This document shows, one piece after another, positions 32,456 through 47,961 of a stretch of 64,000 nucleotides of DNA. Source of the DNA: Patescibacteria group bacterium (GTDB lineage: Bacteria; Patescibacteriota; Microgenomatia; UBA12405). A program made the position numbers and the translations under genes. Numbering within the stretch: the first letter of the stretch is position 1; every line of letters begins with the position of its first letter. Location of the stretch: positions 82,766-146,765 of the forward strand of contig JAHIPV010000013.1 in assembly GCA_018902845.1 (NCBI GenBank), given 5' to 3'. Below the pieces are notes generated by a model. That model made no database searches and had not been told where the DNA came from. It worked only from the letters and a program-made list of their open reading frames with translations.

Positions 32456-32764
32456 ATGAACAAAACACAGCAAAAATATTTAAAAAATTCAGATAAATAC
32501 AAACAACTGGTTTGGGAATACAACATTTCTCCACAAATTTTTTTTAACATACTAAATGGCAAGGAAACCCAAAAGTGGTTTAACAGGCAATGGGCCACAA
32601 CAAAAGTTTTAGAAAATGCCACTTACTATGACGCAATAAATCTTATTGATATGGATTATCTAAAAAAAAACTGGAATATTATAAAATCTAGAATTTTTAA
32701 CAAAAGTATAAAAAATGGATATCAATTCGTACTACAAAAAAAAGCTCTATCCTCTTCAAGATAA
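32456..32764 (+). CDS. Putative AbiEi-like antitoxin (small protein overlapping the AbiEii gene)
   Basis: 102 aa, overlaps the downstream NTase toxin gene by 50 bp. Call is by position only. Confidence 0.3.
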   Translation: MNKTQQKYLKNSDKYKQLVWEYNISPQIFFNILNGKETQKWFNRQWATTKVLENATYYDAINLIDMDYLKKNWNIIKSRIFNKSIKNGYQFVLQKKALSSSR

Positions 32765-33368
32765 AGTTTTAAAAATTTTAGACAAACTAAAAAGCCCCTT
32801 TTATTTAACGGGTGGCACGGCTTTATCTCGTTGTTATTTTAATCACAGGTATTCCGATGATCTGGATTTATTTCTAAATGATAATCCAAAATTTAGAGCA
32901 AATTCAGAAAAAATAATAAAGGAATTAAAAAAAATCTTTAAAGTCCAAATAATTACAAAGGCAGACAAATATTACTCACTCCAAATTGACAAAAAACTTA
33001 AAATAGACTTAATAAACGACGTAGCTTCATACATTGGTAAAACCAAAAAAACTCCTATATATTCCAAAGTCGACAACCCGGTTAATATTTTTTCAAACAA
33101 AATTTCAGCCCTTATAAGCAGAGACGAACCCAAAGATGTAGTGGATATTTGGATTATTTCCAAAAATCAAAAAATTGACTGGGAGCAAATTTTTATAGAC
33201 ACATCATCAAAAGCAATAGGTATTTTTCCGCCAACAGTAGCCCAAAAATTAGACACATTTCCAATTGATCTTATAGATAAAATAAATTGGGTCAAAAATA
33301 ACAAACCTGCAAAAAACTTATTTAAAACAGATATGCAAAAATTAATTCTGGATATTTTAAAGATTTGA
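32715..33368 (+). CDS. AbiEii/AbiGii-family nucleotidyltransferase toxin (DUF1814)
   Basis: FYLTGGTALSRCYFNHRYSDDLDLF matches the family motif (GGTAL...R.S.DLD). Confidence 0.6.
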   Translation: MDINSYYKKKLYPLQDKVLKILDKLKSPFYLTGGTALSRCYFNHRYSDDLDLFLNDNPKFRANSEKIIKELKKIFKVQIITKADKYYSLQIDKKLKIDLINDVASYIGKTKKTPIYSKVDNPVNIFSNKISALISRDEPKDVVDIWIISKNQKIDWEQIFIDTSSKAIGIFPPTVAQKLDTFPIDLIDKINWVKNNKPAKNLFKTDMQKLILDILKI

Positions 33369-33373
33369 TATCA

Positions 33374-33417
33374 TTTTTTCTGCTATTCTTAATTTGTGCA
33401 TAAACCAAAACTCTGCA
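33374..33417 (+). repeat. 44-bp direct repeat copy 2; contains the GTG start and signal-peptide start of the LTD protein
   Basis: ttttttctgctattcttaatttgtgcataaaccaaaactctgc. Confidence 0.8.
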
Positions 33418-34631
33418 TCCCCCTTTTCTTTTTTCTAATTTTCCTTTTGTACAATAACACAAGCTACGCACAAACACCAACTATTATTACGAATCCAAAT
33501 TCGGGAATTTATCTTAATGAAATCATGCCAAATCCGCCAGATGGCGATGAATGGGTTGAAATTTATAATAACAACAATTTTTCTATTATTTTAGAAAATT
33601 GGAAGATTCAAGATGAAACCACAAAAACAAGGCCTATTCCAACTGAAATTATCCAAGCTAAGTCTTATTATGGTTTTTCTGTCGGAAGCGGATTCCTGAA
33701 CAATGGTGGTGATACGGCTAAATTATTAAATGATCAAGGTGTTAATATAAATGAATTCAACTATTCTAAAAGTTCAACGGATTTAAGTTGGTCGAAACAA
33801 ACAGATATTATTTGGTGCGAAGCCGATCCAAGTAAAGGAGAAATCAACGGCACTTGTTTTAAAGCAGCCCCAACTAATACTTCCACTCCAACCAACACTC
33901 CCACCAATTCTCCAACTCCCACCCAAACTCCCACCCCCACAGTCACCCCCACCCCACTCCCTCAACTTTCAGTTCGCATCATCGACATACCCTCTTACAC
34001 CACCCAAAACCAAATTTTTACCATCAAATTTTTAATCGAAAATGCTCCATCTCAAAAAGAATATTATGCCAAGGCTTTTGGTGGTGTTAACGATTATTCT
34101 TCTATACAAACCGAAAACAACGGCAAGTGGCTAAACTATACCGGTAGTTCATGGACTGAATTTCGGTCTTTTAAAGTTGGCGTTGGTGGCTCCGGCAGTT
34201 TTATCTTAACCGCCAAAGTCAAAGAATCCGCCCCAACCGGGGAGTACAAGGTCCAAATCCGTATCAAGCCAACCGACGAGGAAAAAACAACCGATAGCGA
34301 TCTTCACATCCTTCAAGTTTCCCAATCAGTGCCAACACTCGTCCCAACCCCAACCCCCACCCCCACTTCAAAACTTTCTCCCACCCCGACCTTGTCTTCC
34401 ACAGAAAAACTAAAAGAAAAATTATCAGACAAAGATTACGACGGCGATGTTCTGGGTATCACTGATATCACCATGACACCCACCCCAACCAAAACAAATT
34501 CAAAAGAAAAATCCGGCAATCAAAACATTTTCCCGGCTATTTTTATGTTAATTGGTGGCGGACTCTTACTTATTCCTGTCATAATTACCAAAATCAATGA
34601 ATGGAAAAACAACAAACAAACCAACACATAA
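33396..34631 (+). CDS. Cell-surface protein: signal peptide, lamin-tail domain (LTD), Pro/Thr linkers, beta-rich domain, C-terminal TM anchor
   Basis: Signal MHKPKLCIPLFFFLIFLLYNNTSYA. LTD signature IYLNEIMPNPPDGDEWVEIYNNNNFSIILENWKIQD. PT tracts TPTNTPTNSPTPTQTPTPTVTPTP. C-terminal IFPAIFMLIGGGLLLIPVII. Confidence 0.6.
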   Translation: MHKPKLCIPLFFFLIFLLYNNTSYAQTPTIITNPNSGIYLNEIMPNPPDGDEWVEIYNNNNFSIILENWKIQDETTKTRPIPTEIIQAKSYYGFSVGSGFLNNGGDTAKLLNDQGVNINEFNYSKSSTDLSWSKQTDIIWCEADPSKGEINGTCFKAAPTNTSTPTNTPTNSPTPTQTPTPTVTPTPLPQLSVRIIDIPSYTTQNQIFTIKFLIENAPSQKEYYAKAFGGVNDYSSIQTENNGKWLNYTGSSWTEFRSFKVGVGGSGSFILTAKVKESAPTGEYKVQIRIKPTDEEKTTDSDLHILQVSQSVPTLVPTPTPTPTSKLSPTPTLSSTEKLKEKLSDKDYDGDVLGITDITMTPTPTKTNSKEKSGNQNIFPAIFMLIGGGLLLIPVIITKINEWKNNKQTNT

Positions 34632-35049
34632 TCCCAATCTGTCATTGCGCCGTGTCCGCCTCTGGCTGGAAGTGAAGCGTGGCAAAATCTATTATTTCAT
34701 CCCATCAATCCTCTGGATGCTTGTCATTTTTTTTCTCTCCGGCCGTTCCAGTACCGGCATTGGTGGTTCCAGAACTAACCGTTTTTTAATCCACAAAACT
34801 CTTCATATAATAGAATACGCCATTCTTGCCATTACTTTTTACTTCGCCTTTTTTAAAACCAAAATTTTTCCTCAAGTGCAAAAATACACTATTTTTGTCT
34901 CCTATCTCTACGCCCTCACCGACGAACTCCACCAACACTTTATCCCCGGTCGCGACGGCAAAATCTCCGACACCTTTATAGACCTATTAGGAATCCTGCT
35001 TGGTTTATATCTGGTCAAATCGTTTTTACAAAAACGTCAACCAAGTTAG
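34597..35049 (+). CDS. VanZ-family membrane protein (true start probably internal, ~34700-34730)
   Basis: TDELHQHFIPGRDGKISDTFIDLLGILLG is the VanZ-like signature. The first ~30 codons overlap a family C repeat. Confidence 0.5.
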   Translation: MNGKTTNKPTHNPNLSLRRVRLWLEVKRGKIYYFIPSILWMLVIFFLSGRSSTGIGGSRTNRFLIHKTLHIIEYAILAITFYFAFFKTKIFPQVQKYTIFVSYLYALTDELHQHFIPGRDGKISDTFIDLLGILLGLYLVKSFLQKRQPS

Positions 35050-35075
35050 GCAAATTTTTAAAATTAAACTAGTGA

Positions 35076-37385
35076 TTGACATACTCTAACAAAATCATTT
35101 ATCCTAAATTTACCAGTATCATGAAAAAAAGAAACGGTTTCTCAACAATTGCAGCCATGATATTAATGGTGTTGGCACTACCGGTTGCTGTGGTTTTAGT
35201 CAAAAATAATCAGGAATTAAGAAAATCAGCCGCCGGTAATCACTTCATATGTTCTTGGCATCGTCTCTACAATTTATCCCAAAAATGGTTTAGTATTTGT
35301 GAAGGACCGGAGAATTACAAAGATGCCATAGGTCGCGGAGAAAATTTGGGTTATTGTCAAATGCTTCAAGATGACAGTCATTACAATGGCTGTCGAGCCG
35401 ATGGTTATCCGAGCAACGACAAAGAAGTCAGGTGGGTTTACAAAGGCCCCAGAGGGGATACATGTACATACAAATGGGATTTTTGCAGTTCAGAAGCCTC
35501 AGGAAAAAATTGCGAACAAGAAATCAGTCGAAGCTGGAATTTTGCCGAATGTGCTAAGTGTAAACAAATTGATGTTAATTGGAATATGATCATCCCCAGA
35601 GAAGATCAACCCATATATCCGGATGACCCCGTCGATGGTGCTCAGCCAATACCACCGGCTACCAATGACGGCAGTCATATATTTCCAATGGTTGTTATTA
35701 AAAAAATAACCGCCTACAACTGGCATCCGGCCATGACCAAAACCAACAACAATACCAAAATAGATTGGTCCAGTCCTCAAACCCTTATGGACTTTAGAAT
35801 CAAAATTTTTAACCCAAGCAACACAGAGATTAGTTCTACAGACATTCTTCATGGAGATTCTCACATCAACTGTTCCTATGCCACCACTGATTCTTATGAT
35901 GAAAGAGACAACCTAAACCATTATGTAATTTGTAATCTGCAAAACTATATAATCTATACAAGGGAAGATTTAACAAATTTCCAATATCCTCAACAATATT
36001 CTCTGAAAGTTTGGGTCAAAATTGCCTCCTACGGAGAAGATGGCTGGGTCGATTATGATTACACCTCTCCGGATAACAAACTATTTAACTGTGTCAGTAC
36101 TGTTACCGGTCCAACCATTACTCCCACCCCAACTTTTACTCCCACCCAAACTCCAACCTCAACCATAACTCCAACTTTAACGCCCACCCAAACTCCCACC
36201 CCAACTCCCACCCAAACTCCAACTCCAACCACAACCCCCACTCCTACTCCCACTAACACCCCAACTCCAAAGCCAAATATCTGTGGTTACACTCCCTGCG
36301 ATAACTCATCCAGTCCCTGTCAATCTGGTCTAATTTGTGTCGACGCCAACAATGGCAATTCATACTGCTCTATGCCTCAATTTGAAGATGCTTGTGTCGC
36401 CAGACCTTCCTTCTCGTCTTGTTGTACGGCCCCGCCTCCAACCTCAACCCCAACCCCAACCATAACCCCGACTCCAGCCGAAATTTGCAAAGGCCAGTTT
36501 GAGATAAAGATTTGGAAAGATTGGAGAGATTCAAGTTGCAATGGTTGCAACAGGATAATTGATAATTGTGATCACGCTTGGAGCGATAAAACTTATCAAT
36601 ACACCATAACTTATTATGATTCAAACAATACACAAGTTGGTTCCGTTGCTCATGGCAGTTGCGTTGCCAGCAATGGTTCCTGTGGGCCTTTTGATCTAAA
36701 CATTCCCTCCGGTGGACACGCCATAGTAAAAGTTACTCAAGAATCAATGACTCAGGGATGGGCCAGCATAACTCAAGTTGAGCAGTCTTTAACCATCTAT
36801 GAAGATCAAAAAGGAATTTTCAAATATTTAATTTGCCTCGACAGAATGTGTAACGACACCTGTATTGCTTCAGGGGTGGTCAATGGACAAGAAAATTTCT
36901 CAGAAATAATTACTCTAAATTCAAGTTCATGTCAGCCACTTTCATCAGTTCAAAATACGCCGACTTCAACCAGAAATACACCGACCCTAGCCATACCACC
37001 AACCGGTACTCCGCGGCCAACAAGTAGATCTCTACCTACACCTAAACCCACAATCTTAATTAGCGGATCTTGCGACACAGTTGGTGGCAAGTGTACATAC
37101 AAATGGAGATCTTGTAGCAATGGTCACATAGAAAGCAAAACAAGCAGTTGTCAAAAATGGTATTACAAATGTTGCTTACCACCCCAGTCTAGTAATGATG
37201 TTAAACCCACTCCCACCACAAAGCCTGTTCCCACCGCAAAACCAGTCAGTCAATCTTGTAGTACATCCGGTGGTAAGTGCACCTACAAATGGAGATCTTG
37301 TGGCAATGGTTACGTTGAAAGCAAAAATAAAGATGAAAATAGTAGCTGTGGAGGGTGGTTTTACAAGTGTTGTTTACCGTTTTAA
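35076..37385 (+). CDS. Large secreted Cys-rich protein with PT-rich linkers and two C-terminal ~42-aa Cys modules
   Basis: Probable start at M 35121 (MKKRNGFSTIAAMILMVLALPVAVVLV). PT linkers TPTPTFTPTQTPTSTITPTLTPTQTPTPTPTQTP. C-terminal modules GSCDTVGGKCTYKWRSCSNGHIESKTSSCQKWYYKCCLP and QSCSTSGGKCTYKWRSCGNGYVESK...SCGGWFYKCCLP. Confidence 0.4.
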   Translation: MTYSNKIIYPKFTSIMKKRNGFSTIAAMILMVLALPVAVVLVKNNQELRKSAAGNHFICSWHRLYNLSQKWFSICEGPENYKDAIGRGENLGYCQMLQDDSHYNGCRADGYPSNDKEVRWVYKGPRGDTCTYKWDFCSSEASGKNCEQEISRSWNFAECAKCKQIDVNWNMIIPREDQPIYPDDPVDGAQPIPPATNDGSHIFPMVVIKKITAYNWHPAMTKTNNNTKIDWSSPQTLMDFRIKIFNPSNTEISSTDILHGDSHINCSYATTDSYDERDNLNHYVICNLQNYIIYTREDLTNFQYPQQYSLKVWVKIASYGEDGWVDYDYTSPDNKLFNCVSTVTGPTITPTPTFTPTQTPTSTITPTLTPTQTPTPTPTQTPTPTTTPTPTPTNTPTPKPNICGYTPCDNSSSPCQSGLICVDANNGNSYCSMPQFEDACVARPSFSSCCTAPPPTSTPTPTITPTPAEICKGQFEIKIWKDWRDSSCNGCNRIIDNCDHAWSDKTYQYTITYYDSNNTQVGSVAHGSCVASNGSCGPFDLNIPSGGHAIVKVTQESMTQGWASITQVEQSLTIYEDQKGIFKYLICLDRMCNDTCIASGVVNGQENFSEIITLNSSSCQPLSSVQNTPTSTRNTPTLAIPPTGTPRPTSRSLPTPKPTILISGSCDTVGGKCTYKWRSCSNGHIESKTSSCQKWYYKCCLPPQSSNDVKPTPTTKPVPTAKPVSQSCSTSGGKCTYKWRSCGNGYVESKNKDENSSCGGWFYKCCLPF

Positions 37386-37473
37386 CCTACTAATACCAAC
37401 AAACGAATCGGTCTAGTGATAAAAGGTAATTTGTGATACTATGTATGGTTAATTATTTCATAAAACAAAAAAG

Positions 37474-38173
37474 GATAAAAATGTTAAAAAAATCAAAAAA
37501 ACTTATTCTGCCCATTTTGGCAGTCGTCTTCTTTTCAGTCATAGCTTCTTCTGTTATGGCGGTAGGGGACAAAGTTCAACAGGAAAATCGTGGAGGTAGT
37601 GAAAATGCTCAAGGCCCAGGTAATGATAGTGCCGATGATATCGGTAACGAAGATGGTCGTCAAGAAAGTAGGGGTTCAGGCGATCCAACCATGGGTGCCC
37701 CAGCAAACATTAGTAAAGAAACAAGGGAGCATGTTAATGTTGTTGCCCAGGAAGTTGAGAATCTACTTACCATCGAGAGTGCAGACGATGCTGACAATCA
37801 AGGAATTGGTCCGCAGGTTAAATTGATTGCCCAAGAGCAAAAAAGAATTCAAGAGCAAATCAAAACTCAGCTAAACAAGCTGGAAGCCAGACAAGGCTTG
37901 GCAAAAAAGCTTTTTGGCCCTGATTATGGTGCTATAAAGACCATGAACAAATTAATGGAAACCAATCGGGAAAAGCTTGGAGCCTTGACTCAGCTACAGA
38001 CTCAAGTACAAAGTCAAACAGCCAATCAAGGTGCTGACACACAGTTTAAGACAGCCATGCAGACAGCTCTGCAAGGCATGAGTCAGCAAAATACTGCTCT
38101 ACAAGAACAGGTACAAGCGGAACAGCAAACAAAAAGTATGTTTGGCTGGCTTTTCAGGTTTTTCGCTAAGTAA
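37474..38173 (+). CDS. Secreted Gln-rich coiled-coil protein
   Basis: Signal MLKKSKKLILPILAVVFFSVIASSVMA. The Q/A/L-rich C-terminal half is predicted coiled coil. Confidence 0.35.
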
Positions 38174-38189
38174 AATTTAATTCGATTTT

Positions 38190-38226
38190 TACAAAACAAA
38201 GCGGGCTCACGCCCGCTTTGTTTTTC
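38190..38226 (+). terminator. Rho-independent terminator
   Basis: aaagcgggc-tcac-gcccgcttt followed by gttttt. Confidence 0.6.
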
Positions 38227-38440
38227 TCCTCCTGCGGTAAATTTGCTAGCAATATAAGATATTCTCCTCTTGACAATTTTCACACCCCGCCATATTATTC
38301 TTTACAGATGAATTATCACTATATTTTTTATTTTCATCAAAATAAAAACTGGAACGGAAATTCATTGGAACATTAATCCTCCACCAACTGGGGGATTTTT
38401 TTTGTTCTACCGCCCCACCATTAATAAAAACCTGCGTAGC

Positions 38441-38520
38441 CGAGTTTGACTCGGTCATTGCGAGGATCCGCCAGCTGGCGGAGACGTGGCAATCCCGCTG
38501 TGCCTCGCCGTAGCTTTATG
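38441..38520. repeat. gtcattgcgagga...gacgtggcaatc repeat unit
   Basis: ggtcattgcgaggatccgccagctggcggagacgtggcaatcccgctgtgcctcgccg. A near-copy lies at 40396-40450. Confidence 0.6.
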
Positions 38521-38598
38521 CAAAGGCGGGTCTCAAGTCTACATTGTTTATAATTAATTAAATTATATAAAAGGAGGTGAAAATTTAAAAAATAAAAT

Positions 38599-39744
38599 AT
38601 GCGAAAAATATTAAAAAGTTTATTAGTTCTTGCATTAGTAGCAGGTTCGGTTTATGGTATCGCCCAATCCGGCGCTTGGTTTACTGATGAAGAAAATATT
38701 CCAGGTAACAATATTCATGCCGGTACTATTGATATCACCGCTGGTTTGGTTAACGGTGCAGAAACTTTCACCATTGCTGACATGAAGCCATCAACTGTCC
38801 ACTATATGCAGATGGAAATTAAAAATGTTGGTGAAAACGAAGCCGATGTCTGGAAAAGATTGGTTATAGATCGAGAAAACTATTCTGACGGTTTAACGCC
38901 GGAATCAGAACCAGCCGGATCAGATAACAATATTGGCGGAGTAATTCGCTATGACATGCAAATTGACGGAGATGTTTTGATAAGTGAAAGCGATGGCTTT
39001 GTTTTAGATGACAATCCTATACCGGAGCATTTGCTTGGTGTACCAATCAATGGTTTTTGGATGTATTTGGGTCGTTTATTGCCACAAGAAATCATGGCAG
39101 TTGACCAAAGTTACCACATGGACGGCACAACCGGAAACTGGGCCCAGGGCGACGAAATGACTTTTGATGTTGAACTATTTGCTCAACAAATTGTTGGCGG
39201 TGCTCCTTCACCGGATGGTGAATTGGCCGGCCTGACTCGTTGTCAAAATGGTGATAGTCTGGAAATGTACAATATTGGCACAGGAGAAGATACTAGTCAT
39301 AACCTGCTAGGTTGGAGTAACGCATGGACAGAGGCGTGGGGTGGAGGCTATGGTGGTAGAGACGATGGCTCTTTCCGTCTTCTTACTGGTCCAGGTGACA
39401 GTTGTGACGCTGGTTACGAATCTGCCGAATTTACCATGCACGCAGGCACAGATTATGGAGTTCAATTGACCCTAAACCATCTTGACGGATCTCAAGACGA
39501 CAGTTTTGACCTCTATGTCAAGATTGCAGGTATTTGGACAAAATTCGGTCATTATCAAGCTTTGTTAGGTGGAGAAAATTGGGTAACCACTACCTTCAAT
39601 CTTCCACAGCCAGTTACGGGTAATGTTGAGTTCAAGCTAGTTGCTACTCAGCCAAACGATTCTTGGTGTGCCACTTGGGGGCAAGTTGCCTTCAGTTGGG
39701 CTGAACTACTACACAGTACTTGTCCAACACCAACACCGGATTGA
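38599..39744 (+). CDS. Secreted protein with SipW-cognate (TasA/camelysin-like) N-terminal region
   Basis: Signal MRKILKSLLVLALVAGSVYG. The motif AWFTDEENIPGNNIHAGTIDIT parallels the TasA-type AYFSD.E...N.F.AGTLDL signature. RBS aaaggaggtg at 38570. Confidence 0.55.
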   Translation: MRKILKSLLVLALVAGSVYGIAQSGAWFTDEENIPGNNIHAGTIDITAGLVNGAETFTIADMKPSTVHYMQMEIKNVGENEADVWKRLVIDRENYSDGLTPESEPAGSDNNIGGVIRYDMQIDGDVLISESDGFVLDDNPIPEHLLGVPINGFWMYLGRLLPQEIMAVDQSYHMDGTTGNWAQGDEMTFDVELFAQQIVGGAPSPDGELAGLTRCQNGDSLEMYNIGTGEDTSHNLLGWSNAWTEAWGGGYGGRDDGSFRLLTGPGDSCDAGYESAEFTMHAGTDYGVQLTLNHLDGSQDDSFDLYVKIAGIWTKFGHYQALLGGENWVTTTFNLPQPVTGNVEFKLVATQPNDSWCATWGQVAFSWAELLHSTCPTPTPD

Positions 39745-39784
39745 CAATAGGTGTTGCTTTGGATTTGTCTGATAGTGGTTTGGA

Positions 39785-40486
39785 ATGCGCATCCAAACCA
39801 CTATCATGAGTAGTGTTATGACAATGAAACTAAAAAAAATATTAAATATCTTTACTGCCTTAACCCAGCTACTATTAATACTATTAATAATACTAACTCT
39901 GGCCGTTACATTTTTATCCCGTCGCGGAATATCTAACCTTAGAGCCTTTGTAATTTCTACCGGTTCCATGGGTACCTCAATTCCCGCCGGCTCTCTTATC
40001 ATTACCCAGCCCCAAGATTCTTATCAAAAAGATGACATTATTACTTATTACACTAACGATTCTAACGGCAACCGCCAAAAACTGCCCACCACTCACCGCC
40101 TAGTCGAAGTAAAACAGGGCGAAAATTTAGGCTATCAAACCAAAGGTGATGGCAATCAAACTGTCGATCCATTTATCACTCCAGCCAAAAGTCTTATCGG
40201 TAAAGTAATTTTCCACTTGCCTTTTTTTGGTTATTTTAGTAATTTTGCCCAAAGCAGAAACGGATTTATATTCCTAATAGTCATCCCTGCTACTATTCTT
40301 ATATACGGTGAAATCAATACTATTTTTAAAGAAATTAATAAATTAATTAAAAAGAAAAAAGTAGGGGCGACCCTTGCGGTCGCCCGCAAGAAACATCTGT
40401 CATCACGAGGATCCGCCAACTGGCGGAGACGTGGTGATCCCGTCGGGATTGCCACATCCTCCGATAAATCGGAGTCTTCGCAATGA
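39785..40486 (+). CDS. sipW: Signal peptidase I, SipW (archaeal/ER S26B) type
   Basis: TM anchor, then STGSMGTSIPAGSLIIT. The motif is the S26B-type SGSMEP with the Ser nucleophile. It ends in a lysine-rich C-terminus. The true start is probably M at ~39824. Confidence 0.6.
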   Translation: MRIQTTIMSSVMTMKLKKILNIFTALTQLLLILLIILTLAVTFLSRRGISNLRAFVISTGSMGTSIPAGSLIITQPQDSYQKDDIITYYTNDSNGNRQKLPTTHRLVEVKQGENLGYQTKGDGNQTVDPFITPAKSLIGKVIFHLPFFGYFSNFAQSRNGFIFLIVIPATILIYGEINTIFKEINKLIKKKKVGATLAVARKKHLSSRGSANWRRRGDPVGIATSSDKSESSQ

Positions 40487-40495
40487 CAAACATAA
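40361..40495. repeat. Family B palindrome (GTAGGGGCGACCCTTGCGGTCGCCCGCA) plus a gtcatcacgagga unit, at the sipW 3' end and the N-terminus of the next gene
   Basis: gtaggggcgacccttgcggtcgcccgcaag at 40361, identical to 43155, 48396 and 62945. Then tgtcatcacgaggatccgccaactggcggagacgtggtgatcccgtcggg. Confidence 0.75.
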
Positions 40496-40496
40496 A

Positions 40497-43130
40497 ATGA
40501 AATTAAAAAAATTATTATTTTTACTAACTCTCACTCTCCTCTTTTGGGGCGGGGGAGTATCACCGGCTTTTGCCTATCTTGATGACACGGAAGAAAGTTT
40601 AAACAATCAGCTTAATTCCGCCGTTCTTGACTTGGAAGTCAGCTCAGATTCAGATTTTTCTAGTGGTGTTATCCCTGATCGTCTCACCCCTGATCAAGAC
40701 AGCAGCAGAAATATAGATCTATCAAAAACAACCATCAGTATTCCTCTTTGGCACAAAGTTTCTTATCAGGCCGTCGGCGCTACCGATTCTTATCCGGATC
40801 TTTGCAACGCTATCAATCTAAACACGTTTTACGACGCTACACCAAAATACACCGGTCCCCTTTCAGCTCTTTCCGATTTTACCGATGCCGATTTTTTCAT
40901 CGATTCCTCCACTCCTCAGCATTTTGTCTACAGCTTATCTCTTGGCACAACCGACCCCGATTTGCAAAATCGGACTTGCAAATTCAATTTGGTTTTTTCC
41001 GCCTGGCAGGAATTAAGCGATGGCACTTGGGGATTTGTTGATGAGGAAATTCTAGAAAATACAATTAGTTCCGGCGATTGGCAAAATCCACTTTCTGCTA
41101 TCACCGCAACTTTTAGTTCCGACGCCCAATCTGGTTTGCCTCTTATCATAGGCTACACCGCCAGTGACAATATTGATATTGACTATGTCCAGCTTTGCTA
41201 TTCTTTTGATCTAAACGATTGGAATTGCGACGATCCCAACTTAACAGATATTCCCAGTTCCCCCGGCTCTTTTAACTTCAACGCGCCGGAGGGAGACGGT
41301 CTTTATTATTTTGCCACTATTGCCTACGACAAAGAAGGCAATCAAGAAAACAAAGATTTACCGGACCCGGAAACCATTGGCCCCTTTGATTTTTACTCAG
41401 TTCAAATTGATACCCAAAACCCATACACTGTTTTATCTTTAGGCGAATTTGGCGACACAAGAAACGCCCAGGGAGATCAGCTCAATAATGGTAATTTTGA
41501 CAACGATTCTTTTTGGACTTGGGCAGGAGCCGGCCAACATCAATTGGTTAATAATACCGATCTTTCCGCAACTTCAATTGAGGTCAAAAGTCCCGATAAC
41601 TCCGCCTTGGTTGGCTGGCTAAACGACCCCGTCGGCACCGGTGGTCAGGATTACACCTATCAAATTTTAACCTTACCGGCTGATACACCCTCGACTCTAT
41701 CATTTTGGTATCGGGTAGTCGGCGGTGATCATGTCGACAACGATTATTTTCAGGCCACTATCATAGATGACAACAATCCTTCCGGCAACGAGACTATTAT
41801 TACTACCGGTTCTGATGAAATTGGCGGTTGGTACGATGACACTTATTGGCAAGAAATCACTCATTCCTTATCCGGCTGGAGCGGACAGAGCATCCGTCTT
41901 CATTTTTCTGTTGACAATAATCCTTCATCAAACACTTTTGCCCTGATAGACAATGTCAGAGTTACCGCTTCTCCTAATTATATTAATATCAACAATCAAA
42001 TAGTTCTAAACAGCAATGACACCGGTGCCGGAGTAGAAAAAACTTTTTATAAAACAGGTACAAATGCTTGGCAGGAATATTCGACTTCATTTAATCTGGC
42101 CAGTCAAGGGGTTAATACCAGTGATACTGTTTTGTTGTCCTATTATTCTACCGATTTAGTGGGAAACACCGAAACTGTCAGAACCATAGAATTAACAGCC
42201 TTTGGTGAAATCGAAACTCCACCCCAGCCCCAAGCTCAAATCACAGTATTTAGTCCCATGGTCCAAACATTCACGCCAATTTTATTAACAAAAGCCGAAG
42301 ATCCTAATCAGGACAGAATATTAATAACCGCATTTATACCGCAACCAAAATTTCATATGAATGAACTGGTTTGGCTAAAAAACACCCAAAGCTCTCCCGA
42401 TCTCAAAGCCGGTGACAATCCGTCCGATGACAAATTCCAGCCTGTTGATATAACAGAATGGCAAATTTGCCACACTGATTCATCACTGCCAAAGTATGAT
42501 GAAAATAACCAGGAGCAATACAACCCAACTCCGACTCCGGATGAATGTGTCAAAATTGAACCAAAGCTAAATCCGGATCAAGATCCCGATGACAAAAAAA
42601 CAGAAATTCCAACCGAAAAAGAGATTATACTTATTGCTGATTTCAAGCTAGACGATGACAAAGACACTATTTTCCTGCTCGACAAAGACAACAACATAAT
42701 TGACCAATACTCCTATGAATACAAAGAAGACAACACCGATCCGAAAAAAAACCATCTTTTCACTCGTGACCCGAATGATGATTACTCTTGGAAAGATCCG
42801 GAACAAAAAGATAACCTTTTGGAATATTATCTCTATTCATCTCTAAATCAGGACAAAGATACTGTTAATTTCAAGCTCTACGGTATGCCGGACAAAGATT
42901 CCTACCAACTAGAACTGCTTTATTTGTCAGAAAAACTGGAAAAAGGTGTTTATACTTTTCATGATTTTGATTCCAATGATCCGGATATAATTAAAGAAGA
43001 CATGTTTATGGGAACCTGCTCTACCGATGGCCTCGTCTGCACTCCAGACCCTCTTATAACTAATATCAATTACATCTTCACCCTCCACCAAGGAGAAAAC
43101 AACCAAATTTTAAAAAATGAAATCAATTAA
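40497..43130 (+). CDS. Very large (878 aa) secreted protein with SipW-cognate-like N-terminus
   Basis: MKLKKLLFLLTLTLLFWGGGVSPAFAYLDDTEESLNNQLNSAVLDLEV carries a signal plus the A-Y-x-D-x-E...N...LDL motif. No catalytic motifs. The upstream 123 nt of the track ORF is repeat-derived. Confidence 0.5.
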   Translation: MKLKKLLFLLTLTLLFWGGGVSPAFAYLDDTEESLNNQLNSAVLDLEVSSDSDFSSGVIPDRLTPDQDSSRNIDLSKTTISIPLWHKVSYQAVGATDSYPDLCNAINLNTFYDATPKYTGPLSALSDFTDADFFIDSSTPQHFVYSLSLGTTDPDLQNRTCKFNLVFSAWQELSDGTWGFVDEEILENTISSGDWQNPLSAITATFSSDAQSGLPLIIGYTASDNIDIDYVQLCYSFDLNDWNCDDPNLTDIPSSPGSFNFNAPEGDGLYYFATIAYDKEGNQENKDLPDPETIGPFDFYSVQIDTQNPYTVLSLGEFGDTRNAQGDQLNNGNFDNDSFWTWAGAGQHQLVNNTDLSATSIEVKSPDNSALVGWLNDPVGTGGQDYTYQILTLPADTPSTLSFWYRVVGGDHVDNDYFQATIIDDNNPSGNETIITTGSDEIGGWYDDTYWQEITHSLSGWSGQSIRLHFSVDNNPSSNTFALIDNVRVTASPNYININNQIVLNSNDTGAGVEKTFYKTGTNAWQEYSTSFNLASQGVNTSDTVLLSYYSTDLVGNTETVRTIELTAFGEIETPPQPQAQITVFSPMVQTFTPILLTKAEDPNQDRILITAFIPQPKFHMNELVWLKNTQSSPDLKAGDNPSDDKFQPVDITEWQICHTDSSLPKYDENNQEQYNPTPTPDECVKIEPKLNPDQDPDDKKTEIPTEKEIILIADFKLDDDKDTIFLLDKDNNIIDQYSYEYKEDNTDPKKNHLFTRDPNDDYSWKDPEQKDNLLEYYLYSSLNQDKDTVNFKLYGMPDKDSYQLELLYLSEKLEKGVYTFHDFDSNDPDIIKEDMFMGTCSTDGLVCTPDPLITNINYIFTLHQGENNQILKNEIN

Positions 43131-43139
43131 CAACCTTGT

Positions 43140-43270
43140 CATTCCGACCAAAATGTAGGGGCGACCCTTGCGGTCGCCCGCAAAAAACAACAATGCTAAA
43201 AAAAATATTAACATCCGTCATCCTGAACTTGTTTCAGGATCCCATTGAGATTCTGAACTAAATTCAGAAT
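43140..43270. repeat. Family B palindrome plus a palindromic family A unit (cgtcatcctgaacttgtttcagg...ctgaactaaattcagaatgacg)
   Basis: aatgtaggggcgacccttgcggtcgcccgcaaaaaac, then catccgtcatcctgaacttgtttcaggatcccattgagattctgaactaaattcagaatgacgaa. Confidence 0.75.
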
Positions 43271-43347
43271 GACGAATATATTAATTTAAAAAGTCTTGAA
43301 ATTATTTGGAAATTTAAATTTTAGATTTAACATCTAAATTTAACTTA

Positions 43348-44982
43348 ATGAAACTTAAAAATACATTATTACTAGCTTTATCATTCCTTTTTTTTGTAAA
43401 ACCTATTCTCGCCGGCAACGACTTAGCGGTCACTTGTTCCCAATCTGAAGAATTCGGTTTTTGTGACACCTCTCCCGCCAATATCCCTCTTTTTTCAGAA
43501 ACAGATGTAAAACCCGGTTTTAATTTTTACCAAAATATTACTGTTGATACTACTAGTTTAGAAGAAGAATTTTGCAATCTTACTATAGGCACTTCAAAAG
43601 TTAGTGATCCCTCTGGTCTTGGTGGAGTTTTAGTAAATCAACTTAGAAGAGATGGTTCAATTATTAAAGAATTTACCATCGCTGATTTATCGACCCCAAC
43701 ATTTTTAGAAACAATTCCCAATAATTCTACCTATATTTACAACTGGAAAATGACCATGAAAGAAAACGCCGGCAATGAATTTCAAGGTCAAAATCTTTCT
43801 TTTGATCTTCTACTCAATTTTTCCTGTGGCCAAGAACCGGAGCCAACCCTCACTCCCACTCCAGTCATAAACCCGTCCGGAATAATCCTAAACGAACTCA
43901 TGCCAGCCCCGTCAGACAATCAAGAATGGTTTGAAATTTATAATACCAACAATTTTGCTGTTATCTTAGAAAATTGGCAATATGACGATCTTGATGCTAT
44001 TAGCAGTGGAGCAGTCAGAAATTTACCAATCATTAATATTCCCGCTTTTGGTTTTTATGTTATCCAAGCCGGTGGCAGTTATTTTAACAATGGTGGCGAT
44101 TTTGTCAGATTAATAAACCAAGATGGGATTGAAGTCGATTCTTTTGACTATACTAGTTATTCTTATATTTTTAGTTGGTCACGCCAGCCCGACAATTCCT
44201 GGTGTCTTACCGATCCAACCAAAGACGATGCCAACAATCTTTGTCCCAGCGACGACGGCCCAACTCCCACCTCACCCCCATCACCTCCAACCTGCGATGA
44301 TGAAAAACCCAACACTCCTACCGGTTTGTTTGCCACCGATATAGGTAACGGCCAAGTTTCTTTAATTTGGAATCCTGTCGTTACACCACCGCCATTTACT
44401 TACTATCTTTTGGCCTACGGCCCATCTCCCGGTAATTACATTTATGGCAATCCTAATGTTGGCTCCAACAATTCCTACATTGTTTCCGGCTTAACAACCG
44501 GTGCTCAATATTGTTTTTATGTCAAAGCCATAAACAATTGCATGCCAGGTGATCCTTCCAACGAATCGTGTATAAATATTGGTTCAACAACTCCTATATT
44601 AGAAACTACCCCTCCTGAAGGATTTGTAGAGGGAGTTTTGGGGGAAGAAACAGAAGAGACGGAAGGGGAGGTTGAGGGCTTGGTTGGTGGTAATGTTGAA
44701 GGTGTTTCTGAATGTGAAAAATATTGGCTTCCGATTCTTTATCTGGTGGCATTTTTTATCAACATAATTTACATGAATAGACAGGCGTCCAAAAAGCCCT
44801 ATAATCGTTCTTCCTTGCGCCATATTGTACCCTTGCTTCTACCGGTTCTAGCTTTCTTTGTTGATACATACATACTAAAAACCCGCTGTTGCAAAGTCGC
44901 CCTTTGGTATTGCAAATATTTTTGGATCGGCAACATCCTCTCCCTATTTGTTCCTGTTTACTATTACAATAAGACCAAATAA
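43348..44982 (+). CDS. Cell-surface protein: signal peptide, lamin-tail domain, fibronectin type III domain, C-terminal TM region (paralogue of 33396)
   Basis: LTD signature IILNELMPAPSDNQEWFEIYNTNNFAVILENWQYDD. FN3-like PNTPTGLFATDIGNGQVSLIWNPV...YCFYVKAINN. C-terminal hydrophobic helices. Confidence 0.55.
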   Translation: MKLKNTLLLALSFLFFVKPILAGNDLAVTCSQSEEFGFCDTSPANIPLFSETDVKPGFNFYQNITVDTTSLEEEFCNLTIGTSKVSDPSGLGGVLVNQLRRDGSIIKEFTIADLSTPTFLETIPNNSTYIYNWKMTMKENAGNEFQGQNLSFDLLLNFSCGQEPEPTLTPTPVINPSGIILNELMPAPSDNQEWFEIYNTNNFAVILENWQYDDLDAISSGAVRNLPIINIPAFGFYVIQAGGSYFNNGGDFVRLINQDGIEVDSFDYTSYSYIFSWSRQPDNSWCLTDPTKDDANNLCPSDDGPTPTSPPSPPTCDDEKPNTPTGLFATDIGNGQVSLIWNPVVTPPPFTYYLLAYGPSPGNYIYGNPNVGSNNSYIVSGLTTGAQYCFYVKAINNCMPGDPSNESCINIGSTTPILETTPPEGFVEGVLGEETEETEGEVEGLVGGNVEGVSECEKYWLPILYLVAFFINIIYMNRQASKKPYNRSSLRHIVPLLLPVLAFFVDTYILKTRCCKVALWYCKYFWIGNILSLFVPVYYYNKTK

Positions 44983-46759: not shown

Positions 46760-47626
46760 GTGAAACAAAAACTTTCGCTTCTGTTTATTCCTCAGGAAAA
46801 AAACAACTACAAATCGCTTTTGACCCATCCCAGTTTTTTGGGAATTTTTATTGCCGTCTATCTGCTCAACCAATCTCTTATCAGGTCCTTTACTATTCTT
46901 AAACCCGGTGTTTTGGGTTATTCGTCTGAAATTACAGTTCAAAAAGTTATTAAGCTAACCAATCAAGAAAGGCAAAAAAACGGCCTGCCCCAGCTTGTTT
47001 ATAACCAAGACTTAGCCAGCTCAGCTACCAATAAAGCCAAAGACATGTTCGCCTACAACTACTGGGCCCACAATTCCCCATCCGGCAAAACCCCTTGGGA
47101 TTTCTTTAAGGAAATAGGATATGACTATTCTACTGCCGGTGAAAATCTGGCCAAAGACTTTTATGATACCGATTCTATGGTCAAGGCCTGGATGAAATCT
47201 CCCACTCATCGGGACAATATCCTTCATGCCAAATACAAAGAAATTGGCATAGGGGTAGTTAACGGTACCTTAAACGGAGTAAAAACCACCCTAGTCGTTC
47301 AGCATTTTGGCTTGCCTCTTAATCTTGCTTCTGTTTCCAATCAACAAAATCCGCCCAATGATCTTAATTCAGAATCACCGGTTTTGACAGAAACTCAGCA
47401 AATTTTATCTCAAGAGAATTCAGCGCCTTTAATTAGCCCGCTTCAAATTAGTAAAACTTTGGGTATCATTATGTTTACAATACTGATTTTAGCCATGTTA
47501 ACAGACGGTTACATAACCATGAAAAACAAAACCAAGCGCCTGGCTGGTTCAGCTACTGGACACATTAGTTTTTTGGCCATTATTTTGATGTTATTACTTT
47601 TTAGCCAACAGGGGAGTATATTTTAA
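46760..47626 (+). CDS. CAP/SCP (PR-1/YkwD-like) domain protein, membrane-anchored at both ends
   Basis: LTNQERQKNGLPQLVYNQDLASSATNKAKDM...WAHNSPSGKTPWDFF...GENLAKDF...WMKSPTHRDNIL matches the CAP domain signatures. GTG start. Confidence 0.6.
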   Translation: MKQKLSLLFIPQEKNNYKSLLTHPSFLGIFIAVYLLNQSLIRSFTILKPGVLGYSSEITVQKVIKLTNQERQKNGLPQLVYNQDLASSATNKAKDMFAYNYWAHNSPSGKTPWDFFKEIGYDYSTAGENLAKDFYDTDSMVKAWMKSPTHRDNILHAKYKEIGIGVVNGTLNGVKTTLVVQHFGLPLNLASVSNQQNPPNDLNSESPVLTETQQILSQENSAPLISPLQISKTLGIIMFTILILAMLTDGYITMKNKTKRLAGSATGHISFLAIILMLLLFSQQGSIF

Positions 47627-47691: not shown

Positions 47692-47961
47692 ATGAAAACT
47701 GACATTTTAAAAGATCTAAAAAAAAATCCATTCGAATTTATTTTATTATTCCTCATTCTTTTAACCGGCGCTTTATTTTTTCTTTATTTCAGCTTTAATT
47801 CCCATTATCAGCGCCGGGTAATTTATGCCACTGGAGCCGCCTATTGTTTTTGGAGTTTAATTCACCATTACCGCCGTGGAGATTTACAACTTTCCATCGT
47901 AGTCGAATACATTCTCATCGCCCTTTTCGCCACCATCCTCCTCACCGGCACCTTGTTTTAG
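47692..47961 (+). CDS. Hypothetical small membrane protein
   Basis: 89 aa with two hydrophobic helices. Confidence 0.25.
   Translation: MKTDILKDLKKNPFEFILLFLILLTGALFFLYFSFNSHYQRRVIYATGAAYCFWSLIHHYRRGDLQLSIVVEYILIALFATILLTGTLF

What the first reader, a model, noticed from the sequence alone, without database searches (positions are those of the whole stretch)
33396..44982. Surface-protein locus with SipW-type signal peptidase and two SipW-cognate substrates, plus LTD, FN3 and Cys-module proteins
Eight consecutive same-strand genes are all secreted or membrane proteins: an LTD protein, VanZ, a 769-aa Cys-rich protein with duplicated CxYKWRSCxNG...CCLP modules, a coiled-coil protein, a TasA/camelysin-like protein (AWFTDEE...AGTIDIT), an S26B-type SipW (STGSMG), an 878-aa protein with an AYLDDTEE...LDLEV N-terminus, and an LTD-FN3 protein.
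In Bacillus, SipW processes TasA and TapA for fibre assembly.
Here the arrangement suggests a dedicated sorting or fibre system for giant surface proteins, possibly for attachment. That is inference.
Basis: partly seen in the sequence, partly recalled or inferred. Interest (0 to 1): 0.6.

Follow-up and report, generated by a model that had tools for sequence, protein, structure and literature searches.

The report
TasA-type surface fibre gene cluster
An uncultivated ultrasmall (Patescibacteria) bacterium carries a conserved gene set for a Bacillus-TasA-like surface fibre: a dedicated SipW signal peptidase, a main fibre subunit, a giant probable tip protein, and a membrane-anchored relative that lacks the linking strand and may fasten the fibre to the cell.

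Summary
Eight consecutive + strand genes (33396-44982) all have a signal peptide or transmembrane segments, and every quoted motif is present.

- **g6** is an ER/archaeal-type (SipW/SEC11-like) signal peptidase. It has invariant Ser61/His104/Asp and is not LepB-like.
- **g5** belongs to the TasA/camelysin family. It has a SipW-type N-terminus, a TasA-like jelly-roll and an extra C-terminal beta-sandwich domain.
- **g7** (877 aa) has a homologous N-terminus and a TasA-like body. It fails TIGR04088.
It lacks the donor-strand segment and ends in transmembrane helices.
- g8's N-terminal domain defines a family with at least 219 cluster representatives that Pfam almost never recognises. Members sit beside SipW and TasA-like genes in every informative locus, and all are cell-anchored by TM segments or LPxTG-like signals.

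The conserved core is g5-g8, with g1/g2 and a downstream CAP gene kept in close relatives. The Cys-rich g3 and g4 are lineage-specific.

Most likely mechanism (inferred): a donor-strand-exchange fibre, with g7 as nucleator and tip, g5 as shaft and g8 as membrane anchor and terminator.

I rate this a new variant of a known kind, of moderate interest.

The parts
33396..34631 (+). g1: membrane-anchored surface protein. Order of parts: signal peptide, LTD, PT linker, Ig-like domain, PT linker, 'DVLG' motif, C-terminal TM. Conserved only in close relatives.
   Evidence: PF00932, 51.5 bits, aa 34-124. C-terminal TM at 378-396 and VLG at 352. Orthologues in L007 and L008.
34597..35049 (+). g2: VanZ-family membrane protein. 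It overlaps the end of g1. The pairing with g1 is conserved in L007 and L008.
   Evidence: NF037970, 73.5 bits; PF04892, 50 bits. Three TM segments. Synteny.
35076..37385 (+). g3: lineage-specific Cys-rich (42 Cys) secreted or anchored protein. Two 6-Cys modules ending in CCLP lie at nt 37071-37181 and 37257-37379. Not part of the conserved core.
   Evidence: No Pfam or NCBIfam family. Modules found by regex. Absent from L007 and L008. Only one near-identical partial relative in metagenomes.
37433..38173 (+). g4: N-terminally anchored, Q-rich, probably helical protein of unknown function. Not conserved in close relatives.
   Evidence: No family. TM at 24-42. The only hit elsewhere is L018:10362-11045.
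38270..38298 (+). Best sigma-70-like promoter match of the region (TTGACA-17-TATTAT). It follows a hairpin terminator after g4, so it may mark the start of a g5-g8 transcription unit.
   Evidence: This is a consensus match only.
38599..39744 (+). g5: probable major fibre subunit.
- Signal peptide, aa 1-26.
- Donor-strand-like WFTDEENIPGNN, aa 27-~40 (nt 38677-38718).
- TasA-like jelly-roll up to aa ~205 (nt 38719-39213).
- Conserved C-terminal beta-sandwich domain, aa 215-372 (nt 39241-39714).
   Evidence: - 199 homologues, most carrying PF12389.
- TIGR04088, 19.9 bits on the N-terminus.
- AF2 pLDDT 83.9, with aa 23-39 disordered.
- Foldseek rank 2 is the TasA fibre 8aur_A, E 2e-6.
- TasA is also the best PDB sequence hit, in the correct register.
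39785..40486 (+). g6: SipW / ER-archaeal-type signal peptidase I. Ser61 is at nt 39965-39967, His104 at 40094-40096, Asp122 and Asp128 at 40148-40168. It has an N-terminal and a C-terminal TM. The last ~40 aa are the translation of a repeat element.
   Evidence: - TIGR02228, 84.1 bits, above the 51.85 cutoff.
- Invariant S61/H104/D128 and near-invariant D122 in 13 homologues.
- The family profile hits only SEC11A/C in the PDB, E 1e-14.
- Adjacent to TasA-like genes in all loci.
40363..40488 (.). Composite palindromic repeat element between g6 and g7. It also occurs elsewhere in the window.
40497..43130 (+). g7: giant minor subunit, proposed nucleator and tip adhesin.
- Signal peptide, aa 1-26.
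- Donor-like YLDDTEESLNNQL.
- TasA-like body up to aa ~175 (nt 40575-41021).
- Ig-like region.
- Choice-of-anchor-J/MAM-like jelly-roll (nt 41676-41963).
- OmpL47-type barrel (nt 41991-42197).
- Degenerate LTD (nt 42252-42803).
- C-terminal domain.
   Evidence: - hhalign versus the g5 family: 95.8%, E 8e-9.
- hhalign versus the g8N family body: 85.7%, E 5e-6.
- LTD match to g8: 96.8%.
- NCBIfam hits.
- 11 of 12 family members have an LTD and one has PF12389.
- SipW fusion in P0129.
43348..44982 (+). g8: proposed membrane anchor and terminator.
- AxA-type signal peptide, aa 1-22.
- TasA/AbpA-like domain without a donor strand, aa 23-165 (nt 43414-43842).
- LTD (nt 43873-44217).
- FN3 (nt 44314-44565).
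- 'EGVLG' motif (nt 44635-44643).
- Cys-containing multi-TM C-terminus (nt 44722-44979).
   Evidence: - hhalign of the 78-sequence family versus the g5 family: 97.6%, E 3e-12.
- AF2 pLDDT 89.4.
- Foldseek top hit is AbpA 7ueg_A. TasA 5of1_B has the best TM-score, 0.47.
- 0 of 147 relatives carry the donor motif and 111 of 147 have a C-terminal TM.
- Synteny with SipW and TasA-like genes.
46760..47626 (+). CAP-domain secreted or anchored protein. It is a conserved downstream neighbour of the cluster in relatives. In this window it is separated from g8 by an inserted YibE/F gene (45489-46613).
   Evidence: PF00188, 79 bits. CAP follows the g8 homologue in L007, L008 and L021, and lies beside the cluster in L025.

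Best explanation
The core of the locus (g5-g8, 38599-44982) encodes a TasA-type extracellular fibre that depends on a SipW signal peptidase, in a Patescibacteria bacterium.

**Shown here**
- g6 is an ER/archaeal-type Ser-His signal peptidase.
- g5, g7 and g8 each begin with a TasA-fold jelly-roll domain.
- g5 and g7 carry the SipW-type 'A|[WY][FL]xD[DET]E' N-terminus. g8 does not.
- The four gene types co-occur across many Patescibacteria loci and one Dehalococcoidia locus.

**Inferred**
1. SipW cuts g5 and g7 just before the aromatic residue. This frees an N-terminal strand equivalent to TasA residues 28-38.
2. That strand inserts into the beta-sandwich of the next subunit (donor-strand exchange).
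3. g7 provides the first strand, as TapA does, so it ends up at the distal tip. There it displays its Ig-like, jelly-roll and LTD domains for adhesion.
4. g5 polymerises as the shaft. Its extra C-terminal beta-sandwich (lectin-like) domain decorates the shaft.
5. g8 can accept a strand but cannot donate one, and it is fixed in the membrane. It would take the last free strand, ending growth and tying the fibre to the cell.

g1-g4 are flanking envelope proteins, not core parts.
For: **Peptidase**
- TIGR02228 scores 84.1 bits against 17.4 bits for the LepB-type model.
- S61, H104 and D128 are invariant and D122 is near-invariant in 13 homologues.
- The family profile matches only SEC11A/C in the PDB (1e-14), with GSM, HR and GD..D aligned.

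**g5**
- Most of the listed homologues (199 found at E<=0.001) carry PF12389, and NCBI names several TasA family or SipW-dependent.
- TIGR04088 scores 19.9 bits on the N-terminus.
- In the AF2 model the putative donor strand (aa 23-39) is disordered.
- The TasA fibre 8aur is Foldseek rank 2, E 2e-6.
- TasA aligns in register at the GTxDL, KP and NxxQG...F motifs.

**g7**
- N-terminus versus g5: 95.8%, E 8e-9.
- Body versus g8N: 85.7%.
- Every g7-like protein in 12 loci keeps a donor-like motif, even those that lack the jelly-roll body.
- SipW is fused in frame to g7-like proteins in P0127-P0129.

**g8**
- 97.6%, E 3e-12 versus the g5 family. The alignment starts after the donor region.
- An AF2 model built from its own family alignment (pLDDT 89.4) has AbpA as top hit and TasA as best TM-score.
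- 0 of 147 relatives carry the donor motif and 111 of 147 end in a TM. Some have LPETG, LAQTG or LPATG and a neighbouring sortase.

**Synteny**
- A g8N-type gene is present in all 12 loci that have enough flank.
- SipW lies next to a TasA-like gene in every locus.

**Established knowledge**
- The TasA donor strand is residues 28-38. TapA supplies the first strand. A subunit cannot release its own strand until it is complemented (PMC9674648).
- A Phe at P2' makes TasA a poor LepB substrate (PMC10269814).
- BsaA fibres grow at the membrane before SipW cleavage, and TasA-family operons often hold anchors (PMC11580942).
Against: - No experiment exists, and no multimer model could be run. Polymerisation, polarity and the roles of g7 and g8 are therefore inference.
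- g7 fails TIGR04088. g5 is below the Pfam cutoff on its own (18.8 versus 22.5 bits).
- The Foldseek E-values for g8N are weak (best 2.8e-3; none at or below 1e-3).
- The statistically supported g8-g5 alignment starts at g8 residue 46. That g8 lacks exactly the donor strand therefore rests on motif matching (AGNDLxV versus AGTIDI).
- The conserved Cys30 and Cys39 of g8 may lock an N-terminal hairpin into the groove, which would block strand acceptance.
- g7 in this genome has its own groove, so a pure tip role is less clean here than in relatives that lack the body.
- The 217-nt gap and hairpin between g7 and g8 leave co-transcription uncertain.
Confidence: 0.6

Rival explanations
1. SipW-processed but non-polymerising surface proteins. 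On this reading g5, g7 and g8 are independent adhesins or envelope proteins that merely share a TasA-like beta-sandwich module, and no fibre is formed.
For: - No polymerisation evidence exists.
- g5 carries a large extra domain that could hinder packing.
- g7 fails TIGR04088.
- The camelysin/TasA fold also occurs in soluble monomers (PMC9674648).
Against: - The donor-strand motif is conserved in g5 and g7 relatives, even where g7-like proteins have lost the jelly-roll body.
- The strand is predicted disordered in the monomer, as in BsaA and TasA (PMC11580942).
- Three complementary TasA-fold types (donor plus acceptor, donor-biased, acceptor-only) are strictly co-inherited.
Confidence: 0.2
2. 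A fibre is made from g5 (with or without g7), but g8 is not part of it. g8 would be a separate membrane-anchored LTD/FN3 adhesin whose TasA-like domain is self-complemented. Fibres would then be released or held by another factor, as in Bacillus biofilm matrix.
For: - In the AF2 model of g8N the protein's own N-terminal strands 26-31 and 38-42 are folded onto the domain with high confidence.
- Conserved Cys pairs are present.
- A 217-nt gap with a hairpin lies before g8.
- Foldseek support for the fold is weak.
Against: - g8N-type genes are present in 12 of 12 informative TasA/SipW loci. Conversely, SipW and TasA-like genes flank 4 of 4 independently sampled g8N genes.
- The family always has a cell anchor and never a donor motif.
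- Monomeric TasA is also self-complemented before exchange (PMC9674648).
Confidence: 0.3
3. A camelysin-type (peptidase M73) secreted metalloprotease system.
For: The Pfam family name Peptidase_M73 is the only family hit of g5.
Against: - No HExxH-type motif is visible in the g5 family alignment.
- The protease assignment of CalY is regarded as a likely misidentification (PMC11580942).
- The structural match is to the TasA fibre.
Confidence: 0.03

Closest known systems
Bacillus subtilis tapA-sipW-tasA operon (TasA biofilm fibres)
   Same: - A dedicated ER-type SipW lies next to TasA-fold proteins.
- Cleavage occurs before an aromatic or hydrophobic pair.
- An N-terminal donor-strand region is followed by GTxDL, KP and NxxQG..F motifs.
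- A minor protein carries a TasA-like N-terminal strand, so g7 is analogous to TapA.
   Different: - g7 is not homologous to TapA beyond the N-terminus, and no TapA model hit was found.
- The major subunit has an extra ~160-aa C-terminal domain.
- There is a third TasA-fold protein without a donor strand and with a membrane anchor.
- LTD and FN3 domains are present.
- The host is Patescibacteria, not Bacillota.
Clostridium perfringens sipW-bsaA-bsaB-bsaC (BsaA fibres) and related TasA-family operons with LPxTG proteins and sortases (PMC11580942)
   Same: - SipW occurs with several TasA-fold paralogues and a large adhesive-domain protein.
- A membrane-proximal assembly model and anchor proteins have been proposed.
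- Relatives of this locus carry LPxTG-like g8N proteins and sortases.
   Different: - No sortase lies within 10 kb here. g8 is anchored by its own TM helices.
- An N-E-K isopeptide triad was not tested.
- No vWA protein is present.
Archaeal bundling pili (AbpA/AbpB, Pyrobaculum; PMC9245690)
   Same: - The subunit is a TasA-fold donor-strand protein.
- AbpA (7ueg) is the top Foldseek hit of the g8 N-terminal domain.
- AbpB, a larger partner, has been proposed to donate the first strand and act as adhesin, as proposed here for g7.
   Different: No dedicated signal peptidase lies in the Abp locus. Sequence similarity is very remote.
Chaperone-usher and sortase pili (tip adhesin, shaft, then basal terminator or anchor, e.g. 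PapH, FctB)
   Same: Same logic: tip first, anchor last. The terminating subunit cannot be extended further.
   Different: Analogy only. There is no homology and no usher or chaperone. The FctB sequence hit of the g8N profile is not significant (E 1.1).

Membership tests
ER/archaeal-type signal peptidase I (SipW, S26B; TIGR02228) | Scores above the curated cutoff of the archaeal/ER-type model and below that of the bacterial LepB-type model | tested here: met
   TIGR02228 scores 84.1 bits (cutoff 51.85). TIGR02227 scores 17.4 bits (cutoff 47). The Bacillus SipW equivalog NF046067 scores 92 bits, below its 190 cutoff, so g6 is not an orthologue-level match.
ER/archaeal-type signal peptidase I (SipW, S26B; TIGR02228) | Ser-His(-Asp) catalytic residues instead of the Ser-Lys dyad | tested here: met
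   S61 (GSM), H104 (THR) and D128 are invariant, and D122 is near-invariant, in 13 homologues. They align with the GSMEP, VHR and TKGD..D motifs of SEC11A/C. Which residues of SEC11 are catalytic comes from my own knowledge of that literature.
ER/archaeal-type signal peptidase I (SipW, S26B; TIGR02228) | Actually cleaves the neighbouring TasA-like preproteins | not testable with these tools
   Only genomic linkage and an in-frame SipW-substrate fusion, P0129.
TasA/camelysin family (PF12389, IPR022121): g5 | Sequence match to the family model | tested here: inconclusive
   g5 itself scores 18.8 bits, below the 22.5 cutoff. Most homologues down to 30-40% identity carry PF12389. TasA is the best PDB sequence hit of the family profile, but at E 0.15.
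TasA/camelysin family (PF12389, IPR022121): g5 | TasA-like jelly-roll fold | tested here: met
   AF2 pLDDT 83.9. Foldseek hit to 8aur_A (TasA fibre): E 2.1e-6, probability 1.00, TM-score 0.46 normalised to the target.
SipW-cognate signal peptide (TIGR04088) | N-terminus scores at or above 19 bits | tested here: met
   This row is for g5. Its N-terminal 70 aa score 19.9 bits. The full-length protein scores 15.7 bits. Homologues score 26.9-32.2 bits.
SipW-cognate signal peptide (TIGR04088) | The same test applied to g7 | tested here: not met
   No hit at E<=10. The L007 orthologue scores 11.9 bits. Homology of the N-terminus is seen only by hhalign (95.8%).
TasA-fold domain: g8 N-terminal domain (new subfamily) | Homology and fold similarity to TasA/AbpA | tested here: met
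   hhalign 97.6%, E 3.2e-12 versus the g5 family. The AF2 model has AbpA as top Foldseek hit and TasA as best TM-score, 0.47, but all E-values are >= 2.8e-3. Pfam PF12389 hits only 1 of 78 members.
TasA-type fibre (donor-strand exchange polymer) | The N-terminal strand of one subunit completes the sandwich of the next, giving filaments | not testable with these tools
   No multimer prediction or experiment was possible. The only indirect evidence is the disordered aa 23-39 in the monomer model.
TapA | Sequence membership of g7 in the TapA family | tested here: not met
   No TapA-related NCBIfam or Pfam hit for g7. The resemblance is functional only, through the donor-like N-terminus.
Lamin tail domain (PF00932) | Score above the gathering threshold (34.3 bits) | tested here: met
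   g1 scores 51.5 and g8 scores 44.2. g7 scores only 15.5, but 11 of 12 family members pass and g7 586-769 aligns to the g8 LTD at 96.8%.
Sortase-dependent pilus | LPxTG substrate plus a sortase gene in the locus | tested here: not met
   No sortase among the called genes within 10 kb on either side. g8 has no LPxTG. Relatives L009, L018 and L025 do have them.

The most novel reading that the evidence does not exclude
Patescibacteria, and some other monoderm-like lineages, build a three-part, cell-anchored TasA-type pilus. A previously unrecognised family of acceptor-only, membrane- or sortase-anchored TasA-fold proteins (at least 219 cluster representatives, invisible to Pfam) terminates and anchors the fibre. 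An LTD-bearing giant protein forms the adhesive tip. Such a structure could be a host-attachment organelle of episymbiotic ultrasmall bacteria. It would also answer how TasA-like fibres are terminated and tied to the cell.
Probability: 0.35. Interest if true: 0.7.

Novelty: new variant of a known kind. Interest (0 to 1): 0.5.

Why it matters
TasA-family fibres are known mainly from Bacillus and Clostridium biofilms and from a few archaea. How they are nucleated, terminated and attached to the cell is still unsettled.

This locus and its relatives suggest a simple genetic answer: one paralogue donates the first strand, and another can only accept a strand and is fixed to the envelope.

Attachment to host cells is central to the lifestyle of Patescibacteria. 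So far only type IV pili have been implicated, in the papers my searches returned. A second, conserved fibre system with lectin-like and LTD domains would be a concrete candidate for host binding.

The g8N family also gives annotators a new handle on hundreds of 'hypothetical' or 'LTD-containing' proteins.

Tried and rejected
- **Single-sequence PDB searches** of g5 and g6 were uninformative. Family profiles were needed.
The exhaustive HMMER scan then found 219.
The g8N model was built from the representative-library family instead.
- **g3:** no family, no homologue in any fetched locus, and one near-identical partial metagenome contig. I rejected it as a core component.
- **Genome-collection scan with the g5 family** gave only 10 loci.
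- **The FctB basal-pilin hit of the g8N profile** (E 1.1) was rejected as not significant.
- **Camelysin protease reading** was rejected, as set out under the rival explanations.
- **N-E-K isopeptide triad (BsaA-type):** I considered whether the invariant N37, D61 and K63 of g5 could form one. It could not be tested without a BsaA alignment or a multimer model.
- **Literature:** two searches found no paper linking TasA or SipW functionally to Patescibacteria beyond a distribution survey.

Full report
**Observation**

The same proteins occur on several public Patescibacteria MAG contigs, for example GCA_018897325.1 JAHIKP010000010.1.

HMM scans confirm the following:
- LTD in g1 and g8.
- fn3 in g8.
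- VanZ in g2.
- An archaeal/ER-type signal peptidase in g6. TIGR02228 scores 84.1 bits against a 51.85 cutoff, while LepB-type TIGR02227 scores only 17.4.

The quoted motifs are all present, including two full 6-Cys 'CxYKWRSCxNG...CCLP' modules and a third degenerate copy in g3. Hydropathy shows a signal peptide or TM segment in every protein. The same-strand run of envelope proteins continues through YibE/F, a CAP-domain protein and a small TM protein up to 47961.

**The peptidase**

In an alignment of g6 with 12 homologues taken from related loci, S61 (GSM), H104 (THR) and D128 are invariant and D122 is nearly so. A profile of this alignment hits only SEC11C and SEC11A in the PDB (1.2e-14, 2e-12). 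The GSMEP, HR and TKGD..D motifs are aligned, and no LepB-type enzyme appears. g6 has an N-terminal and a C-terminal TM segment.

The last ~40 residues of g6 are the translation of a palindromic repeat element and are absent from the 66%-identical orthologue in L007.

**g5**

- 199 homologues were found. Most of those listed carry PF12389, and NCBI names several 'TasA family protein' or 'SipW-dependent-type signal peptide-containing protein'.
- g5 alone is just under the Pfam cutoff (18.8 versus 22.5 bits). Its N-terminal 70 residues reach the TIGR04088 cutoff (19.9 versus 19), and its homologues score 27-32 bits.
- The family has two domains. The N-terminal TasA-like domain has a consensus AYFSDTE..N.F.AGTIDI ... 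DMKPS ... NWAQGD.MTF.VE..AQQ. The conserved C-terminal domain has invariant His, Trp, Cys and 'HLDGSQDDSF'.
- AF2 gives pLDDT 83.9. Residues 23-39, the putative donor strand, fall below 50.
- Foldseek ranks the TasA fibre structure 8aur_A second (E 2e-6). Other hits are CBM-type beta-sandwich enzymes, which probably reflect the second domain.
- By sequence, TasA is also the top PDB hit of the family profile. The hit is weak (E 0.15) but in the right register.

**g7**

Only 13 homologues exist. Eleven of the 12 family members aligned, counting g7 itself, have an LTD, and one has PF12389.

- Profile-profile comparison links the first ~90 columns (signal peptide, donor-like motif, first strands) to the g5 family at 95.8%, E 8e-9.
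- Residues 60-168 match the g8 N-domain family at 85.7%, E 5e-6.
- g7 586-769 is a degenerate LTD (96.8% versus the g8 LTD).
- NCBIfam adds an OmpL47-type barrel and a choice-of-anchor-J-like region.
- g7 does not match TIGR04088.

Two comparative facts argue that g7 is nevertheless a SipW substrate and a strand donor:
- Every g7-like protein in 12 loci keeps an 'A|[YF][FLY].D.E' motif after its signal peptide, even those that have lost the TasA-like body.
- In P0129 a complete SipW (E 4e-49) is fused in frame to a g7-like protein that retains its own hydrophobic segment and a TNA|YFSD site. P0127 and P0128 show the same fusion.

**g8**

This is the main new point. The region before the LTD (aa 23-165) has 219 relatives in an exhaustive HMMER scan of 1.84 billion cluster representatives.

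- A 78-member alignment matches the g5 family at 97.6%, E 3.2e-12. The match covers g8 46-159 against g5 54-196, the jelly-roll body after the donor region.
- Pfam sees PF12389 in only 1 of the 78.
- An AF2 model built from this family's own alignment is confident (pLDDT 89.4).
- Its best Foldseek PDB hit is the archaeal TasA homologue AbpA (7ueg_A). TasA 5of1_B has the highest TM-score (0.47, rmsd 3.6 A over 169 columns). All E-values are modest, at 2.8e-3 or above.
- None of 147 relatives has the donor motif. Their AxA-type signal peptides lead almost directly into a conserved 'DLxVTC' strand.
- 111 of 147 relatives end in a TM segment. Several carry LPETG, LAQTG or LPATG signals.

By motif, g8 'AGNDLAV' corresponds to g5 'AGTIDIT' and TasA 'SGTLDLS'. 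On that reading g8 starts about where TasA residue 41-42 lies and lacks the equivalent of donor strand 28-38. This mapping is inference, because the statistically supported alignment begins later.

**Synteny**

- Relatives at 78% and 56% g5 identity keep LTD-VanZ ... TasA-like - SipW - giant protein - g8-like - CAP. In place of g3 and g4 they have a second TasA paralogue.
- A WWE3 genome has TasA-SipW-TasA-LTD protein-g8N protein-sortase.
- Local HMMs over all fetched loci show a SipW beside a TasA-like gene in every locus. A g8N-type gene is present in all 12 loci with enough flank.
- In the other direction, four g8N relatives on sufficiently long contigs all sit beside SipW and TasA-like or g7-like genes. 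One, with LAQTG, lies next to a sortase.
- g3 has only one near-identical partial relative anywhere searched.

The best promoter-like site of the region (38270-38298) follows a hairpin after g4. This is consistent with g5-g8 being a separate transcription unit, but it is a consensus match only.

**Mechanism**

Established knowledge:
- TasA polymerises when N-terminal residues 28-38, freed by SipW, insert into the next subunit. TapA probably provides the first strand. A subunit cannot extend its own strand until it is complemented (PMC9674648).
- TasA's P2' Phe makes it a poor LepB substrate (PMC10269814).
- BsaA fibres of C. perfringens appear to grow at the membrane before SipW cleavage. TasA-family operons often contain several paralogues, fn3 and LPxTG proteins and sortases, which suggests heteropolymers (PMC11580942).
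- PF12389 has been noted in Patescibacteria in a distribution survey (PMC9245690).

Applied here, as inference:
1. g6 cleaves g5 (SGA|WF) and g7 (AFA|YL).
2. g7 nucleates the fibre and becomes the distal adhesive tip.
3. g5 forms the shaft and displays its lectin-like C-domain.
4. g8 accepts a strand but cannot donate one, has a LepB-compatible signal peptide and is permanently membrane-bound. It captures the last free strand, which terminates the fibre and anchors it.

I put about 0.75 on the general statement that this is a SipW-dependent TasA-type fibre or adhesin system. I put about 0.4 on the specific roles of g7 and g8.

**Rivals**
- The proteins may be non-polymerising adhesins.
- g8 may be a self-complemented, disulfide-stapled, stand-alone adhesin.
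- The fibres may be released as matrix, as in Bacillus.
- The 'camelysin protease' reading is very unlikely.

No multimer modelling or experiment could be done.

**Comparison and novelty**

The module is a member of the known SipW/TasA kind, and automated annotation already names it as such. Four things differ:
- the two-domain shaft subunit;
- the giant LTD-bearing donor protein, sometimes fused to SipW;
- the large acceptor-only anchored TasA-fold family, which is not recognised by Pfam or NCBIfam;
- the setting in ultrasmall, probably episymbiotic bacteria.

I rate it a new variant of a known kind, with interest 0.5.

Noticed in passing
window 40365-40385, 43159-43179, 48400-48420, 62951-62971: An exact 21-nt palindromic hairpin, GGGCGACCCTTGCGGTCGCCC, occurs four times, always in the same orientation. 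Two copies follow g6 and g7. The copy at 48400 lies inside the trmD ORF (47942-48763, minus strand). trmD is 273 aa here against 229 aa in relative L007, and it matches its Pfam model in two stretches. This looks like an in-frame repeat insertion in an essential gene.
   Followed up: partly
window 38440-38500 and 40395-40488 (also 13710-13719): A second repeat, GAGGATCCGCCA[A/G]CTGGCGGAGACGTGG, flanked by ...TCGCAATGAC ends, occurs in the g5 leader and in the g6-g7 spacer. Together with the hairpin above it forms a composite MITE/REP-like element. Translating it adds about 40 non-conserved residues to the SipW ORF.
   Followed up: partly
window 4991-5198 (+): Rfam assigns an RNase P RNA of only 208 nt to the archaeal model RF00373 (90.7 bits, gathering score 84). 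The genome is otherwise bacterial: it has TrmD, and the record title says Patescibacteria.
   Followed up: no
window 38199-38214, 38270-38298, 38375-38397: After g4 there is a hairpin terminator. The region's best sigma-70-like promoter follows. Then a second terminator-like hairpin with a T-run lies inside the ~300-nt leader of g5, which might be an attenuator or regulatory leader.
   Followed up: no
g1 aa 352 (nt ~34449) and g8 aa 430 (nt 44635-44643); P0149-P0253: A '[DE/G]VLG' motif lies 25-60 residues before the C-terminal membrane anchor in g1, in g8 and in 58 of 147 g8N-family proteins. It sometimes precedes an LPxTG-like signal. It may be a conserved stalk or processing motif of Patescibacteria surface proteins.
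   Followed up: partly
g8 aa ~459-544 (nt 44722-44979); window 47692-47961; L020:6413-6787: The multi-TM C-terminus of g8 has conserved Cys ('C(C)...WC.YFW') and recurs in many relatives. It also seems to exist as a stand-alone small membrane protein next to some clusters, including the 89-aa ORF at 47692-47961 (g8N HMM E 1e-4).
   Followed up: no
L007:8756-9841, L008:11805-12872, L010:1465-2508, L016:10001-11014: Relatives carry a second TasA paralogue with a conserved C-terminal '...LFETGLMDYYD(A/S)D' tail. It sits at the position occupied in this window by the unrelated g3 and g4.
   Followed up: no
window 32456-33368: Immediately upstream of the locus there is an AbiEii-type toxin (PF08843) with an overlapping small upstream ORF, probably a type IV toxin-antitoxin pair. 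Further upstream lie an SNase-domain protein and an AAA_14/DUF4143 ATPase.
   Followed up: no
window 34001-42000: GC content is 0.40-0.43 across g3-g7, against 0.33-0.37 in the flanks. Part of this comes from Pro/Thr-rich linkers. Foreign origin was not examined.
   Followed up: no
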